Positions 28,995 through 33,170 of a stretch of DNA of 64,000 nucleotides are shown here, in pieces. A model generated the notes under the pieces. That model searched no databases, had not been told where the DNA came from, and worked only from the letters and a program-made list of their open reading frames with translations. The stretch's first letter is position 1. Each line of letters opens with the position of its first letter. The position numbers and the translations under genes are program-made. This DNA is from Escherichia phage ECOP18. The stretch lies in the sequence record NC_105825.1. One strand, given 5' to 3'.

Positions 28995-29023
28995 ATTATA
29001 TTAGAAATTTAGCTTCATAGCAA
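28995..29023 (-). promoter_or_regulatory. early sigma70-type promoter (TTGCTA-17-TATAAT) for a tRNA transcript
   Basis: Same architecture. Confidence 0.55.
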
Positions 29024-29522
29024 GAAAATTTTTCAAGTTTTCGGTAGACATCTCATCCACATCTACGGGAGAAACAAAGCCGTTTAATTTTCTAGCAAAT
29101 TTTTCACCCGCAGGATCGTTGTCTCCGACAGCTACCAATTTAAAAGGTAATAATTTCAGTTGCTTTAATAACGCTTTTCCTGGAGAAGAACCTAACATTG
29201 CCAGGGCTGGATAACCAGCGTTATGTAGCGCAACTGCCTTAAATACAGATTCAGCGATCAATACTACTTTTTCATCTCCATTGAGAGTTTCTAGTCCCCA
29301 TACACACTGGGTAGTAGAATAAGTAAAATATTTAGCTTCAAAGGGACACTTACTATGACCTTTTGGAGCAGAAGGATTATACGTCTGATAGCCTCGCAAC
29401 ATCCCGGAGAAGTCATACAACGGGACTGTTAGCCATCCTTCCGGACTTAACCAGCAATGATATTTATCTGTATCAAATCCTCTGGATAAGAGGTGCTGTG
29501 TTAGCTCATCAACATTCATATT
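29001..29522 (-). CDS. TOPRIM-domain-like protein
   Basis: ORF track frame; start moved to MNVDELTQ with RBS gagagg; LIAES...VGDNDPAG resembles the TOPRIM E...DxD motif. Confidence 0.4.
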   Translation of the reverse strand, partial: NMNVDELTQHLLSRGFDTDKYHCWLSPEGWLTVPLYDFSGMLRGYQTYNPSAPKGHSKCPFEAKYFTYSTTQCVWGLETLNGDEKVVLIAESVFKAVALHNAGYPALAMLGSSPGKALLKQLKLLPFKLVAVGDNDPAGEKFARKLNGFVSPVDVDEMSTENLKNFLAMKLNF

Positions 29523-29549
29523 TGGTTCCTCTCTCAAATTTATAGATAT

Positions 29550-29578
29550 ATTATACAGAGAATTTAGCATTCAAGCAA
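29550..29578 (-). promoter_or_regulatory. early sigma70-type promoter (TTGCTT-17-TATAAT)
   Basis: Same architecture. Confidence 0.6.
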
Positions 29579-29694
29579 TCAAATTTTTTAACTTTTTAGA
29601 GGAAAATCATAGGGCACTTAAGGGTAGCAGATAAGTGGGGAGGACCAAAATTTGTGACCCCACTAAAAATCCGGGGGCAATTTTTAAAGACCCC

Positions 29695-29723
29695 TTGACA
29701 TTTTCGCTGGGGTAGTGTAAAGT
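29695..29723 (+). promoter_or_regulatory. sigma70-like promoter TTGACA-17-TAAAGT (not the early-family type)
   Basis: Consensus -35, 17-bp spacer, weaker -10; about 60 nt upstream of the plus-strand island. Confidence 0.45.
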
Positions 29724-29785
29724 ATATGTTATGGATGAGTGATCAAAGAGACACACATTTTCTATATACTAGGAGGTGTCAAAAT

Positions 29786-30775
29786 ATGACAGAAGAAGTA
29801 GCTAAGAGTCCTGAGACCGTCGCTAGCGTTGCAGCAGAACTGCACCGTCACGAGGAATCAGATAAGAAAAAGTGGGAGAAGGTCAGAGTCTACGAAGAAA
29901 AACATCGTGAACACGATGATGAAGAAGAAGATGACGATGATGAACATTGTCATAAATATGGAAAACATAAAATGCAAGAACCAGTAAACGTATTCACTAG
30001 TGGCTTCCCTGGCCTACTGGGTGGTTACCCAGCAAACGCAGGTGCTTTCGGTGGTGAAGGTATGGGACTATTCGGAGCTATCCTAATCGGTGCTCTATTA
30101 ACCGGCGGATTCGGTGGTTTCGGTGGATTCGGTGGACGTGGTGTAGTTGGTGAAGGTACCGCAGTTGATGCAGTACTTCAGAACCAAGATACCGCTAGTA
30201 TTCTAGCAGCTATCAACACTACTCGTACAGAGGCTAACCAGGGTACTGGAGCTGTTTTAAGCGCAGTTAACAATGGTTTTAGCCAGACAACCCAAAACCA
30301 GAGCCGTGATACTCAGTCTGTACTAACTACGATCTACGGTACAGGTGCTAATCTGTCTAATCAGATCTGCCAGGAAACTCGCAACGTTATTCAGGGTCAG
30401 TTCGATCTTTCTCGCCAGATTGATCAATCTTTCGCAGCTAACCAGATAGCTCGTGCACAAGATAAGTTTGATTCTGCACAGATCGCTTTCCAGCAGACTT
30501 TACAAACTAATAACCAGTTTGCCGCTGTTCAGGCTCAGATGTGTGCTAACCAGAACTCTCTGGAACGTCAGATCGCTGAATGTTGCTGTGAACTTCAGAC
30601 TGCGATCGCTGGTGTAACTACTGCGCGTATCCAGGATGAGTTAGACGCATGTCGCCTACGTGAAGCAATCGCTGCGGGTAGCGGTGCTAACGGTCAGGTA
30701 ATTAATCAAATCGCTTTAAGTCTTGGTGCTATCACTCAGACTCTGGCTGGTCTGCAGGCTAAACTGCCGGCTTAA
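29786..30775 (+). CDS. low-complexity protein: acidic N-terminus, Gly-rich hydrophobic segment, Gln/Asn/Thr-rich C-terminal region
   Basis: ORF track frame; start at ATG preceded by RBS aggagg; GMGLFGAILIGALLTGGFGGFGGFGG glycine-zipper-like segment; no recognisable family. Confidence 0.55.
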   Translation: MTEEVAKSPETVASVAAELHRHEESDKKKWEKVRVYEEKHREHDDEEEDDDDEHCHKYGKHKMQEPVNVFTSGFPGLLGGYPANAGAFGGEGMGLFGAILIGALLTGGFGGFGGFGGRGVVGEGTAVDAVLQNQDTASILAAINTTRTEANQGTGAVLSAVNNGFSQTTQNQSRDTQSVLTTIYGTGANLSNQICQETRNVIQGQFDLSRQIDQSFAANQIARAQDKFDSAQIAFQQTLQTNNQFAAVQAQMCANQNSLERQIAECCCELQTAIAGVTTARIQDELDACRLREAIAAGSGANGQVINQIALSLGAITQTLAGLQAKLPA

Positions 30776-30796
30776 TATTAAGGGGAGGAGCCCCTT

Positions 30797-31213
30797 ATGA
30801 GTAAATATGGTTTTGTAAATAACGGACTTAATCAAAGTATGGGCTCCCAGCAGCCCATTCCGGGTCTGGATAACCCCTACTTACAACAGTTGCAACAGCG
30901 TTTAGCAGAAGCGCAACAGATGCAGCAACAACTCCAGCAAAACCCTGGAAGTGTGAGTCCTATGCAAATGATGCAGCAAATGAGCGGGCAGTCGCAAATG
31001 CCTCAACAAATGCAGCAACAGGTGCCTCAGCAGCAAGTTCAGCAACAAACCCAACAACCGCAGGTTTCTGCGGAAGGACAGGCAGTACTAGCCCTTTTCG
31101 AAGACTTCGCAAAGACAGAGGATGGGAAACAGCTTGTATCACTTATGGGTAAGTTTAATAGCTTCTGCCAAAGCCAAGTTGCAAAAGCTCAAAATGGGGG
31201 TAGTAACTCCTAA
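30797..31213 (+). CDS. Gln-rich low-complexity protein
   Basis: 138 aa; RBS ggggagg upstream; QQ tracts throughout. Confidence 0.5.
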   Translation: MSKYGFVNNGLNQSMGSQQPIPGLDNPYLQQLQQRLAEAQQMQQQLQQNPGSVSPMQMMQQMSGQSQMPQQMQQQVPQQQVQQQTQQPQVSAEGQAVLALFEDFAKTEDGKQLVSLMGKFNSFCQSQVAKAQNGGSNS

Positions 31214-31222
31214 GGAGGAAAT

Positions 31223-31417
31223 ATGTGTTGCAGAAAATCTGTTTCGTGCTGCCCAGTGCCTGTAGCACGTTGTTGCTCTCCAGCAATGTTTACGCAAATA
31301 CCGGCGTTCAATCCCTTTGCCTTTAAACCTACTCTTATCCTGCCCCCTAGAGTAGATTTTCAGTCAAGATTGGCCTCCCGTATGGGTGGTTGCTGTACAC
31401 CGAGAGTATGGTTCTAA
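31223..31417 (+). CDS. Cys-rich small protein with four CC doublets
   Basis: 64 aa; RBS aggagg; MCCRK...SCCPV...RCCSP...GCCTP. Confidence 0.45.
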   Translation: MCCRKSVSCCPVPVARCCSPAMFTQIPAFNPFAFKPTLILPPRVDFQSRLASRMGGCCTPRVWF

Positions 31418-31431
31418 ACCAAAAACAAAAG

Positions 31432-31466
31432 CCCCTGCCGAAAGGTAAGGGGCTTTTTCTTTTGCC
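31432..31466 (+). terminator. rho-independent terminator
   Basis: agcccct-gccgaaaggta-aggggct hairpin followed by ttttctttt. Confidence 0.65.
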
Positions 31467-31479
31467 TTAAATACAGAAA

Positions 31480-31510
31480 AGCCCGCGCTCTCGTAGGAAA
31501 CGCGGGCTTG
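31480..31510 (-). terminator. rho-independent terminator (convergent)
   Basis: cccgcg...cgcggg hairpin followed by a U-run on the minus transcript after the SPFH gene. Confidence 0.55.
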
Positions 31511-33084: not shown

Positions 33085-33170
33085 CAGTTCTTACCGACCG
33101 TAGGATTCGAACCTACATCTTCCACCAGTTACGGCTTGATAATACCAATTATACTAGGACGGCAGTGTTA
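33085..33170 (-). ncRNA. tRNA-like element (T-arm GTAGG-TTCGAAT-CCTAC), no clean cloverleaf
   Basis: T-arm motif inside an 830-bp ORF-free stretch that is transcribed from the promoter at 33387. Confidence 0.25.

What the first reader, a model, noticed from the sequence alone, without database searches (positions are those of the whole stretch)
29695..31466. Self-contained plus-strand island of three low-complexity proteins inside the minus-strand tRNA region
In about 40 kb of minus-strand early genes, this 1.8-kb cassette runs the other way. It has its own promoter (TTGACA-17-TAAAGT, unlike the TTGCT(T/A)-17-TATAAT family used elsewhere) and its own terminator, and convergent terminators separate it from the SPFH gene. 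Its three ORFs are compositionally odd: (1) an acidic N-terminus followed by a Gly-zipper-like hydrophobic segment and a long Gln/Asn/Thr-rich region; (2) a Gln-rich protein; (3) a 64-aa peptide with four CC doublets. I recognise no family for any of them. The organisation suggests a moron-like or host-interaction module, possibly membrane-targeted.
Basis: partly seen in the sequence, partly recalled or inferred. Interest (0 to 1): 0.75.

Follow-up and report, generated by a model that had tools for sequence, protein, structure and literature searches.

The report
Phage T5 accessory three-gene cassette
This is the long-annotated but functionally unknown T5.077–T5.078–T5.079 operon of T5-like phages: a dispensable, often-deleted cassette, also found in unrelated phages, that encodes a probably membrane-anchored cysteine-marked coiled-coil protein and two small partner proteins.

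Summary
The window is a T5-like phage (99.8% identical to T5_ev212). The island is T5's own transcription unit: promoter P12, T5.077, T5.078, T5.079 and a bidirectional terminator, annotated in T5, BF23 and phage 5.

It is not an insertion peculiar to this genome. About 216 of 400 matching T5-like phage records carry it at the same locus. Phages that lack it (Bas33, EPS7) show independent deletions. In T5 all three genes are 'Not Fit' by CRISPRi-ART, and the BF23 virion proteome does not list them.

New here:
- ORF1 belongs to a large unnamed phage family (at least 877 protein clusters, some in crAss-like phages). Members have a Gly-rich hydrophobic segment, a helical hairpin about 16 nm long and an invariant CCC motif.
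- The T5-type three-gene set also occurs in a metagenomic N4-like contig and in Pseudomonas phages RSP and KPP23. ORF3 always starts MCC.
- No Pfam, NCBIfam, PADLOC, PDB or Foldseek match explains any of the three proteins.

Best guess (about 0.4): an autonomous accessory operon, read by unmodified host polymerase, that builds a membrane-anchored, cysteine-stapled coiled-coil complex acting at the host envelope. It is not a spanin. Function remains untested.

The parts
29673..29694 (+). A/T-rich element upstream of the -35 hexamer (TTTTAAAG-N5-TTGACA), resembling an UP element
   Evidence: TTTTAAAG lies at the same distance from the -35 hexamer in T5-like phages and in the distant relatives L010 and L011, whose ORF1 is only 36-43% identical. 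This stretch is 96% identical among 9 T5-like phages.
29695..29723 (+). Promoter P12: TTGACA, 17-nt spacer, TAAAGT (sigma-70 type)
   Evidence: Found by the consensus scan. Annotated as 'promoter P12' in T5, phage 5 and BF23. Conserved in L011 (TTGACA-17-TAAAGT) and L010 (TTGACA-17-TAGAGT). Unique in the window and unlike the 25 TTGCTW-N17-TATAAT early promoters.
29730..29785 (+). 5' leader with the AGGAGG ribosome-binding site. The transcription start near 29730 is inferred, not mapped.
   Evidence: 97.5% identical among 9 T5-like phages. The RBS is annotated in phage 5. Bas33 keeps the first ~27 nt of the leader as a deletion scar.
29786..30775 (+). ORF1 = T5.077, 329 aa. Order of parts: acidic, His-rich N-terminal helix; Gly-rich hydrophobic segment (residues 94-112); long helical hairpin; CCC at residues 266-268.
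   Evidence: PHROG 8119, E = 4e-204, function unknown. dN/dS 0.16. Kyte-Doolittle maximum 1.72. AF2 with a 131-sequence alignment: pLDDT 67.7, helices 12-45, 135-163, 168-276 and 279-326. CCC is invariant in 131 sequences.
30797..31213 (+). ORF2 = T5.078, 138 aa. An N-terminal helix (YLQQLQQRL) and a Gln/Met/Pro-rich linker of variable length, then a conserved C-terminal domain (LFEEFAKTEDGKQLV..GKFNSFCQS).
   Evidence: PHROG 7894, function unknown. dN/dS 0.19. 27 columns are invariant across 8 sequences, including the single Cys. It accompanies T5-type ORF1 in all 7 complete loci examined.
31223..31417 (+). ORF3 = T5.079, 64 aa. A basic, Pro- and Cys-rich peptide that starts MCC and has four CC doublets and an FNPF motif.
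   Evidence: AAGGAGG sits 5 nt upstream of the ATG. It is annotated in T5, phage 5 and Sepoy. An ORF of 49-69 codons starting MCC follows ORF2 in L010, L011, L012/RSP and L056. dN/dS is 0.41 in frame against 0.93 and 1.12 in the other two frames.
31427..31466 (+). Rho-independent terminator of the island, with an A-tract before and a U-tract after the hairpin (bidirectional)
   Evidence: Folds at -22.8 kcal/mol, z = -4.5. Annotated in T5 as 'efficient bidirectional rho-independent transcription terminator' and in phage 5 as 'ter1'.
31479..31509 (-). Convergent terminator of the SPFH gene. It is not part of the cassette and stays behind when the cassette is deleted.
   Evidence: Terminator scan: 12 pairs, 7 of them G-C. 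It is retained in EPS7, Bas33 and about 180 island-less records.

Best explanation
The island is the T5 'P12' operon (T5.077-T5.078-T5.079). It is an autonomous, dispensable accessory cassette that is old in T5-like phages, is repeatedly lost by deletion, and is shared by horizontal transfer with unrelated virulent phages.

**Shown.**
- It has its own promoter of host sigma-70 type and its own terminator.
- All three ORFs are under purifying selection.
- Its genes scored 'Not Fit' (dispensable) in the T5 CRISPRi-ART screen, and they are not listed in the BF23 virion proteome.
- ORF1 belongs to a large unnamed phage family: a Gly-rich hydrophobic segment, then a helical hairpin of about 200 residues with an invariant CCC.
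- T5-type members add an N-terminal acidic helix and always travel with ORF2 and ORF3.

**Inferred mechanism.**
- Because P12 has a consensus -35 hexamer and an UP-like element, unmodified host RNA polymerase transcribes it once the main body of the phage DNA is inside the cell.
- ORF1 anchors in the inner membrane through its hydrophobic segment.
- ORF1 oligomerises into a coiled-coil rod about 16 nm long, stapled through the CCC motif by disulfide bonds or by a metal ion.
- The two signal-less partners, ORF2 and the MCC peptide, bind the cytoplasmic N-terminal extension that only T5-type ORF1 has. Their conserved cysteines probably take part.
- The complex acts at the host envelope as a conditionally useful function. 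The most concrete guess is exclusion of superinfecting phage, or stabilisation or timing control of the envelope. It is not an essential step of the lytic cycle.
For: **Identity and autonomy.** The window is 99.8% identical to T5_ev212. T5, phage 5 and BF23 annotate P12, the three ORFs and the bidirectional terminator. The terminator hairpin has z = -4.5. The promoter differs from the 25 early promoters. It is conserved at nucleotide level even where ORF1 is 36-43% identical.

**Dispensable and non-structural.** CRISPRi-ART scores all three genes 'Not Fit' (PMC11879866). The BF23 virion MS/MS table does not list them (PMC10644984).

**Repeated loss.** EPS7 and Bas33 lack the cassette with different end points, and Bas33 keeps a promoter remnant.

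**Mobility.** The same three genes occur in a metagenomic N4-like contig next to the virion RNA polymerase gene, again on the strand opposite to the flanking genes. They also occur in Pseudomonas phages RSP and KPP23. All 7 complete T5-type loci have ORF2 and ORF3; none of 11 loci of the wider family do.

**Real genes.** dN/dS is 0.16, 0.19 and 0.41.

**Membrane-anchored rod.** The Kyte-Doolittle 19-residue mean is 1.72; the median 15-residue value across 131 family members is 1.9. AF2 gives a 109-residue helix at pLDDT 80-90 plus a return helix, with CCC about 10 residues before the turn. CCC is invariant. The only PDB profile matches are trimeric coiled coils, and they are insignificant.

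**Envelope context.** The T5 neighbour is an SPFH membrane protein, and a cell-wall hydrolase gene lies about 2 kb away in relatives. Wider-family members sit beside a phage lysozyme or amidase and multi-pass membrane proteins.
Against: - No experiment or homology ties the cassette to the envelope or to exclusion.
- Topology is unresolved. In the wider family, positive charges favour the C-terminal side being cytoplasmic: K+R averages 0.28 on the N-flank against 0.85 on the C-flank. The argument from the T5-type N-terminal extension points the other way. A monotopic hairpin or a non-membrane state is possible.
- The hydrophobic core is short, about 12-14 residues between Gly runs.
- If the rod is cytoplasmic, the cysteines cannot form disulfide bonds.
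- In crAss-like phages the family gene directly follows the major capsid gene, which hints at a role in virion assembly.
- The time of P12 activity in infection is not known. The only RNA-seq data found are from Bas33, which lacks the island.
- AF2 confidence is moderate (pTM 0.29) and the model is a monomer.
Confidence: 0.4

Rival explanations
1. A cytoplasmic self-assembling scaffold or condensate. The three low-complexity proteins would form a filament or matrix inside the infected cell rather than a membrane complex. The components would be a Gly/Phe-rich segment joined to a long coiled coil, a Gln-rich protein, and a CC-x-P peptide. This recalls intermediate filaments and their cysteine-rich associated proteins.
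For: - ORF2 is 28% Gln and the ORF1 rod is 39% Q/N/S/T.
- ORF1 carries GGFGGFGGFGGRG and a single GLFG.
- The best, though insignificant, Foldseek matches are vimentin filaments.
- ORF2 and ORF3 have no signal peptides.
- The charge bias of the wider family places the rod in the cytoplasm.
Against: - The hydrophobic segment is the most conserved feature after CCC and has the hydropathy of a membrane segment.
- The Gln-rich linker of ORF2 varies in length and is nearly absent in L010 and L011, so low complexity is not the conserved part.
- The Foldseek matches have E above 3.
Confidence: 0.17
2. A protein for binding metal or for redox chemistry. The His-rich N-terminus of ORF1, the Met-rich linker of ORF2 and the CCC, CC and single-Cys motifs would bind a soft metal (Cu, Zn or Ni), or form an inter-protein metal site comparable to the Rad50 zinc hook at a coiled-coil apex.
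For: - Some relatives have HHYHHHHHEHYE..EHEHHGYH in ORF1.
- ORF2 of KookSpook has MQMQPQMQMQQMMPQQMMPQQM.
- Conserved cysteines occur in all three proteins.
- CCC lies near the turn of the hairpin.
Against: The His-rich and Met-rich tracts are specific to some lineages and are absent from L010, L011, L012 and L056. Only the cysteines are core features. No known metal-binding family matches.
Confidence: 0.1
3. A virion-associated fibre, an ejected pilot protein, or a head-assembly factor. ORF1 would be a trimeric coiled-coil structural or assembly protein.
For: - In crAss-like contigs the family gene directly follows the scaffold and major capsid genes (Crass_capsid E = 9e-211).
- In L007 it lies between the capsid and connector genes.
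- The profile resembles trimeric fibre coiled coils such as reovirus sigma-1 and HA2.
Against: - The BF23 virion MS/MS table does not list the proteins.
- In T5 the cassette lies in the early tRNA region under its own sigma-70-type promoter.
- It is dispensable and often deleted.
- The PDB profile search found no match at E up to 1 apart from generic coiled coils.
Confidence: 0.08
4. A spanin-like or lysis-related membrane-fusion device. ORF1 would act as an i-spanin-like anchored coiled coil, and the Pro- and Cys-rich ORF3 as its small partner.
For: - ORF1 has the outline of an i-spanin: an N-terminal anchor, helical coiled-coil segments and cysteines.
- ORF3 is small and rich in Pro and Cys.
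- Some wider-family members lie beside lysozyme or amidase genes.
- The hydrophobic segment begins GLFGAI, as the influenza HA2 fusion peptide does (my own recall). HA2 chains recur among the weak profile matches, E about 0.1-0.9.
Against: - T5-like phages already carry a canonical overlapping i-spanin/o-spanin pair in the lysis region (bas33_0138 and bas33_0139).
- ORF3 has no signal peptide and no lipobox.
- In T5 the cassette is about 17 kb from the holin and endolysin genes.
- It is 'Not Fit'.
- The HA2 matches are not significant and the aligned columns are generic coiled coil.
Confidence: 0.05
5. ORF3 is not translated, or not only translated. The 3' end of the operon would carry an RNA element, and the 64-codon frame would be incidental to it or share the sequence with it.
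For: - The central 120 nt of ORF3 (31262-31381) are 97-98% identical among 9 phages, more than any part of ORF1 or ORF2.
- Synonymous divergence in ORF3 is 0.096, against 0.32-0.33 in its neighbours.
- The RNA fold of 31255-31390 has z = -2.6.
Against: - A strong RBS precedes the ATG.
- Four lineages whose nucleotide sequences are too divergent to align keep an ORF of 49-69 codons that starts MCC directly after ORF2, and all keep a further CC doublet. Three of them (this window, L011 and L056) also keep an [FV]NPF motif.
- The in-frame dN/dS of 0.41 is lower than in the other two frames.
- No Rfam family matches inside the ORF.
Confidence: 0.1

Closest known systems
T5.077 / T5.078 / T5.079 with promoter P12 and the bidirectional terminator (GenBank AY543070; 'ORF 327aa/138aa/64aa' in phage 5, AJ604531; the same features in BF23, AJ604530)
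   Same: It is the same locus, with the same gene order, promoter and terminators, between the Toprim gene T5.076 and the SPFH gene T5.080. DNA identity is 89% to T5 and 97% to phage 5.
   Different: Nothing essential differs. The window's phage is closest to T5_ev212. All database records call the products hypothetical, and two functional labels are spurious (see 'noticed in passing').
Phage accessory genes or 'morons' with their own promoter and terminator, and envelope-directed exclusion genes of virulent phages (lambda bor/lom; T4 imm and sp; T5 llp). These examples are from my own knowledge.
   Same: It is an autonomous transcription unit. It is dispensable, patchily distributed, distinct in composition, and probably includes a membrane protein.
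   Different: It is found only in virulent phages and is not expressed from a prophage. It has three genes rather than one. It is ancestral at its locus and lost by deletion, not recently inserted. No exclusion phenotype is known.
Two-component spanins (lambda Rz/Rz1 type)
   Same: A bitopic-looking protein with a long helical domain and cysteines, together with a small Pro- and Cys-rich partner.
   Different: ORF3 has no lipoprotein signal. T5-like phages have a separate canonical spanin pair. The cassette is not in the lysis cassette and is not required. ORF1 is about twice the length of Rz.
Class I viral fusion subunits (influenza HA2)
   Same: A Gly-rich hydrophobic segment (GLFGAI...) is followed by a long, trimer-type heptad helix and a cysteine motif near a helical turn. 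HA2 chains recur among the weak profile matches.
   Different: E is 0.1-0.9, and the aligned region is generic coiled coil. There is no second anchor, no precursor cleavage and no envelope to fuse. This is a resemblance, not homology.
Vicinal-cysteine knots that staple extracellular coiled coils or triple helices (collagen III GPCCG, matrilin, COMP), and the keratin plus CC-x-P keratin-associated-protein pairing. Both are from my own knowledge.
   Same: Adjacent cysteines lie at the end of an oligomeric helical rod. The partner peptide has repeated CC-x-P (CCPVP, CCSP, CCTP).
   Different: Those systems work in oxidising or extracellular settings. The compartment and the redox state here are unknown. 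The analogy is one of composition only and was not tested.

Membership tests
T5 P12 operon (T5.077-079) | Synteny: between the Toprim gene (T5.076) and the SPFH gene (T5.080), on the opposite strand, in the tRNA region | tested here: met
   Annotated regions of T5, phage 5, BB1, OSYSP and Sepoy. Pfam Toprim and Band_7 hits for the two window neighbours.
T5 P12 operon (T5.077-079) | Sequence identity of the three products and of the regulatory elements | tested here: met
   89-99.8% DNA identity over the full 1.9 kb in 216 records. PHROG 8119 at E = 4e-204 and PHROG 7894 at E = 1e-79.
Moron-like accessory cassette | Own promoter and own terminator, independent of the flanking operons | tested here: met
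   Promoter activity was not measured here.
Moron-like accessory cassette | Dispensable, and variably present among close relatives | tested here: met
   'Not Fit' in CRISPRi-ART. Absent from Bas33 and EPS7, and from about 180 of 400 records.
Moron-like accessory cassette | Acquired as an insertion between conserved neighbours and expressed from a prophage | tested here: not met
   Island-less genomes carry deletion scars. The cassette is present across Tequintavirus, Epseptimavirus and more distant T5-like contigs. There are no hits in E. coli genomes.
Two-component spanin | The small partner is an outer-membrane lipoprotein with a signal peptide and a lipobox Cys | tested here: not met
   ORF3 starts MCCRKSVSCC, with no hydrophobic h-region and no L-x-x-C lipobox.
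Two-component spanin | Located in, or functionally tied to, the lysis cassette, with no other spanin in the genome | tested here: not met
   Bas33 annotates an i-spanin/o-spanin pair beside the dNMP kinase, Clp-like protease, holin and endolysin genes. In T5 the holin and endolysin genes are about 17 kb from the island.
Two-component spanin | The large subunit has an N-terminal membrane anchor and a periplasmic coiled coil with cysteines | tested here: inconclusive
   A hydrophobic segment and a helical hairpin are predicted, but the topology is unresolved.
Glycine-zipper membrane proteins (Pfam Gly-zipper families) | A (G/A/S)xxxGxxxG motif and a match to a Gly-zipper HMM | tested here: not met
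   The spacing is G-x4-G-x4-G (GAILIGALLTG). No Gly-zipper family appears at E up to 1 or among 21 relatives.
Class I viral fusion protein (HA2-like) | Significant sequence or fold similarity | tested here: not met
   The best HA2 match has E = 0.098 and the aligned columns are generic coiled coil. Foldseek against PDB and BFVD found no hit at E up to 0.001.
Anti-phage defence or anti-defence families (PADLOC) | A match to a known defence-system protein model | tested here: not met
   No hit for ORF1, ORF2 or ORF3 at E up to 0.1.
Unnamed 'hydrophobic Gly-rich segment + helical hairpin + CCC' phage family (PHROGs 8119, 9288, 16490) | A Gly-rich hydrophobic segment near the N-terminus, a helical region rich in N/Q/S/T, and an invariant CCC 53-94 residues (median 64) from the C-terminus | tested here: met
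   The profile search gave 192 hits at E up to 1e-3. A search with the wider-family alignment gave 877 at E up to 1e-5. CCC is the only invariant block in 131 sequences.

The most novel reading that the evidence does not exclude
T5.077 would be the founding, experimentally tractable member of a large, undescribed class of phage proteins. The class has at least 877 protein clusters and occurs in crAss-like, T5-like, N4-like and Pseudomonas phages. Its members would build cysteine-stapled, membrane-anchored coiled-coil rods. In the T5-type version, the rod together with a Gln-rich adaptor and an 'MCC' peptide would form a mobile three-gene system with a mechanism not yet known in phage biology. 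Examples would be a new way to exclude or resist competitors at the envelope, or a new way to reorganise the membrane of the infected cell.
Probability: 0.25. Interest if true: 0.7.

Novelty: new member of a known kind. Interest (0 to 1): 0.5.

Why it matters
T5 is a classic model phage, yet this operon has stayed 'hypothetical' for twenty years.

This analysis shows three things:
- Its first gene opens onto a very large, unannotated phage protein family, which includes relatives placed directly after the capsid gene of crAss-like phages.
- The complete three-gene set moves between unrelated virulent phages of Enterobacteria and Pseudomonas.
- It is easily lost.

That pattern is typical of conditionally useful host-interaction or competition functions. 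T5 genetics and CRISPRi tools exist and the cassette is dispensable, so the function can be tested directly. If the function is ordinary, the result still corrects the view that the island is an oddity of this genome, and it flags two misleading database annotations.

Tried and rejected
- **Family libraries.** Pfam, NCBIfam and PADLOC gave nothing for the three proteins. PHROGs gave only families of unknown function.
- **PDB profile searches.** The ORF1 family gave only insignificant coiled-coil matches. The 97-aa partner of the wider family gave none.
- **Spanin idea.** Rejected: a canonical spanin pair exists elsewhere in T5-like genomes, and ORF3 has no lipobox.
- **Strict glycine zipper.** Rejected.
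- **EF-hand reading of 'KTEDGKQLV' in ORF2.** Rejected by eye, because the ligand positions do not fit. This was not tested with a tool.
- **Expression timing.** I sought it in the Bas33 RNA-seq and proteome dataset (PMC13250531), but Bas33 lacks the island.
- **Literature.** A full-text search for T5.077, T5.078, T5.079 and T5.080 found no paper.
- **Wider-family alignment.** The full alignment was too divergent for locus scanning, so a narrower one was used.
- **Prophage or bacterial copies.** The species-genome scan for the wider family found one 2-kb MAG contig. The search for the island in E. coli genomes found none.
- **Rfam.** Nothing inside the island beyond sub-threshold hits on the terminators.


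Full report

The 1.9 kb around the finding is 99.8% identical to Escherichia phage T5_ev212 and 89-98% identical to T5, BF23, phage 5 and more than 200 other Markadamsvirinae.

- TTGACA-17-TAAAGT at 29695-29723.
- Three + strand ORFs.
- A strong + strand terminator hairpin at about 31427-31466 (-22.8 kcal/mol, z = -4.5).
- A convergent - strand terminator at 31509-31479.
- An SPFH/Band_7 neighbour (E = 2e-17).

All 21 tRNAs and every convincing gene from about 4.8 to 45.4 kb are on the - strand. The early-promoter family TTGCTW-N17-TATAAT occurs 25 times exactly, against 0.09 expected, and the island's promoter type is unique in the window. The island's GC content (46.6%) is at the 99.4th percentile of same-sized windows, and GC3 is also raised.

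There are three corrections:
- ORF1 most likely starts at ATG 29786 behind AGGAGG, giving 329 aa as annotated in relatives.
- The promoter match alone is not beyond chance.
- The 'Gly zipper' is a hydrophobic Gly-rich segment with G-x4-G spacing that matches no Gly-zipper model.

**It is a known locus, not an oddity of this genome.**

GenBank records for T5 (AY543070), phage 5 (AJ604531) and BF23 (AJ604530) annotate the same unit. They list promoter P12, ORFs of about 327, 138 and 64 aa (T5.077, T5.078, T5.079), and an 'efficient bidirectional rho-independent terminator'. The unit lies between the Toprim gene T5.076 and T5.080.

The re-annotation used for the CRISPRi-ART screen lists all three genes as 'unknown function' and 'Not Fit' (PMC11879866, supplementary files 8 and 16). 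The BF23 virion MS/MS table does not contain them (PMC10644984). A full-text search for the gene names found no paper.

**Presence, absence and mobility.**

About 216 of 400 matching records carry the whole island. The rest match only the terminator of the SPFH gene.

- EPS7 lacks it, while other Epseptimaviruses (Sepoy, TrudiGerster, AKM_HA2021_32) have it.
- Bas33, a Tequintavirus, lacks it. It still carries the P12 -10 region and the start of the leader (matching window 29713-29756), fused to the sequence that follows the + terminator (31465 onward).
- EPS7 has different break points, at 29629 and 31450.

The empty sites are therefore independent deletions of an ancestral cassette, not uninserted sites.

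Distant T5-like metagenomic contigs, with ORF1 36-43% identical, keep all three genes and keep the promoter nearly base for base (TTTTAAAG-N5-TTGACA-N17-TAAAGT or TAGAGT).

The same three genes also occur in two unrelated settings:
- On a metagenomic N4-like contig beside the virion RNA polymerase gene, again on the strand opposite to the flanking genes.
- In the 63-kb Pseudomonas aeruginosa phages RSP and KPP23, next to the terminase gene.

No copy was found in 5,426 E. coli genomes.

**Are the ORFs real?**

Among nine T5-like phages, dN/dS is 0.16 for ORF1 and 0.19 for ORF2, with synonymous divergence of about 0.32.

For ORF3, dN/dS is 0.41 in frame, against 0.93 and 1.12 in the other two frames. 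In four lineages too divergent to align at nucleotide level, an ORF of 49-69 codons follows ORF2 directly or overlaps its end. It always starts MCC and has at least one further CC. An [FV]NPF motif is present in this window, L011 and L056, and a C-terminal aromatic residue in this window, L011 and L056. I therefore take ORF3 as coding.

One thing is unexplained. The central 120 nt of ORF3 are 97-98% identical across these phages, more than any part of ORF1 or ORF2. Synonymous divergence in ORF3 is only 0.096. The RNA folds somewhat better than shuffled controls (z = -2.6). An added constraint at nucleotide level is possible.

**What the proteins are.**

No Pfam, NCBIfam or PADLOC family matches. 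The PHROG matches (8119 and 7894) have unknown function.

A profile of ORF1 and its close relatives found 192 representatives. A profile of the wider group found 877 protein clusters at E up to 1e-5, none of them named.

The wider family has a median length of 263 aa and this order of parts:
- a short acidic N-terminus;
- a Gly-rich hydrophobic segment (consensus GGIGALLIGALLFGGGLGGFG; median 15-residue hydropathy 1.9);
- a helical region rich in N/Q/S/T;
- an invariant CCC 53-94 residues (median 64) from the C-terminus.

AF2 with 131 sequences models ORF1 (pLDDT 67.7) as an N-terminal helix (12-45), a disordered Gly-rich region, and three further helices at 135-163, 168-276 and 279-326. The 109-residue helix is about 16 nm long. 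CCC (266-268) sits about 10 residues before the hairpin turn.

Foldseek against PDB and BFVD gives nothing meaningful; the best match is vimentin at E above 3. A PDB profile search gives only insignificant coiled-coil matches at E of about 0.1 or above: a designed coiled coil, reovirus sigma-1 and influenza HA2.

Members of the wider family lie on phage contigs of 40-170 kb. Several of these are crAss-like, and there the gene directly follows the major capsid gene (Crass_capsid E = 9e-211). Others sit beside lysozyme or amidase genes and small HTH regulators. These members are followed by a conserved partner of about 97 aa and unknown fold. They never have ORF2 or ORF3. A scan of 185,579 species genomes found a single hit.

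T5-type ORF1 differs by an N-terminal extension of 64-110 residues with a conserved helix (VAAELxxHExxDK). ORF2 and ORF3 accompany it in all 7 complete loci examined.

ORF2 has a variable Gln/Met/Pro linker and a strongly conserved C-terminal domain of about 45 residues with one invariant Cys.

**Most likely mechanism (inference).**

P12 has a consensus -35 hexamer and an UP-like element, unlike the phage's early promoters. The cassette is therefore probably read by unmodified host polymerase as soon as the DNA is in the cell. This was not measured. The only RNA-seq data I found are from Bas33, which lacks the island.

- ORF1's single hydrophobic segment (Kyte-Doolittle 1.72) is the best candidate for a membrane anchor.
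- The long hairpin and the trimer-like heptads suggest an oligomeric rod.
- The invariant vicinal cysteines suggest stapling by disulfide bonds or by a metal.
- ORF2 and ORF3 have no export signals and occur only with the N-terminal extension, so they most likely bind that extension in the cytoplasm.
- The envelope context is suggestive: an SPFH neighbour, a cell-wall hydrolase gene nearby, and lysozyme or amidase genes next to some wider-family members.
- Dispensability and frequent loss point to a conditionally useful function at the envelope, such as superinfection exclusion or control of envelope stability.

I put about 0.4 on this general model, and less on any specific activity.

The main weaknesses are these:
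- Topology is unresolved. The charge bias of the wider family favours a cytoplasmic C-terminal domain.
- The position after the capsid gene in crAss-like phages hints at an assembly role.
- There are no functional data.

**Rivals.**

- *Cytoplasmic scaffold or condensate (0.17).* It fits the composition but not the conserved hydrophobic segment, and the Gln-rich tract is not conserved.
- *Metal binding (0.10).* It fits the His-, Met- and Cys-rich tracts, but only the cysteines are core features.
- *Virion or assembly role (0.08).* The BF23 proteome and the dispensability argue against it.
- *Spanin-like role (0.05).* It fails two defining tests. ORF3 has no lipobox, and T5-like phages already have a canonical i-spanin/o-spanin pair.
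- *ORF3 as an RNA element only (0.10).* The conserved MCC frame argues against it.

**Novelty and verdict.**

The island itself has already been described as a set of annotated hypothetical genes. New here are the link to a very large uncharacterised phage family with an invariant CCC, the definition of a mobile three-gene cassette shared by T5-like, N4-like and Pseudomonas phages, and the evidence that empty sites are deletions.

I file it as a new (uncharacterised) member of a known kind, the phage accessory cassettes. I give about 0.25 that it represents a new type of system. Interest: 0.5.

Noticed in passing
window 31262-31381 (centre of ORF3): These 120 nt are 97-98% identical among nine T5-like phages whose ORF1 and ORF2 synonymous sites have diverged by about 33%. 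Synonymous divergence in ORF3 is only 0.096, and the RNA fold of 31255-31390 has z = -2.6. This suggests an added constraint at nucleotide level, such as an RNA structure or a DNA site, on top of coding.
   Followed up: partly
window 31479-31509, GCGC at 31484-31487: The terminator hairpin of the SPFH gene contains the GCGC core that the T5 record annotates, at the homologous position, as a 'major DNA single-chain interruption' (nick consensus Pu-pGCGC). One of the phage's programmed nicks therefore probably lies just outside the cassette.
   Followed up: no
window 33092-33163 (- strand): Rfam's tRNA model scores 35.5 bits (gathering score 29) for a tRNA-like element that ARAGORN did not call. 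It lies in the stretch that T5 and phage 5 annotate as 'RNAX, stable RNA with unknown functions', downstream of tRNA-Arg.
   Followed up: no
window 29001-29570 (- strand, T5.076 homolog): This is a Toprim-domain protein (Pfam E = 2.6e-5) with a PADLOC hit to the DnaG-like part of a DRT defence protein (E = 6e-7). The CRISPRi-ART annotation table labels T5.076 'subverts retron-mediated defense' and scores it Semi-Fit. An anti-defence gene is thus the island's immediate neighbour.
   Followed up: partly
window 9903-58469: There are 25 exact copies of TTGCTW-N17-TATAAT (0.09 expected). Twenty are on the - strand up to 45.5 kb and five on the + strand from 47.6 kb. They mark the two divergent early transcription blocks and a strand switch between about 45.5 and 47.6 kb.
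   Followed up: partly
L024 3821-4940, L027, L029, L030, L032, L005, L007 (metagenomic phage contigs): In the wider ORF1 family the gene is always followed by a conserved protein of about 97 aa (MASPITVGTTAIVVAP.N..R..IRFQNTG..IYLKK...). This protein has no Pfam, PHROG or PDB match. In crAss-like contigs the pair sits directly after the major capsid gene. A small HTH regulator (GerE/sigma-70 region 4 type, or one that looks MerR/excisionase-like by eye) often precedes it.
   Followed up: partly
L038 1801-2217 (Salmonella phage Sepoy) and L058 4419-4601 (Pseudomonas phage RSP): Two database annotations look spurious. The ORF2 homolog is labelled 'cAMP-dependent protein kinase catalytic subunit' in Sepoy and in HMD-7. 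The 60-aa ORF3 homolog is labelled 'alpha/beta hydrolase like protein' in RSP.
   Followed up: no
window 29640-29722: Short G/C inverted repeats surround the promoter. CCCCACTAAAAATCCGGGG lies upstream, and ACCCC...GGGGT brackets the -35 hexamer and part of the spacer. They are conserved among close T5-like phages but not in L010 or L011. They could be a protein-binding site or a weak terminator for upstream transcription.
   Followed up: no
L042 28791-29518 (Bas33): T5-like phages have an annotated overlapping i-spanin/o-spanin pair beside the dNMP kinase gene, separated from the holin and endolysin genes by the dNMP kinase and a Clp-like protease gene. The T5 annotation table used by the CRISPRi-ART study does not appear to label these genes as spanins.
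   Followed up: no
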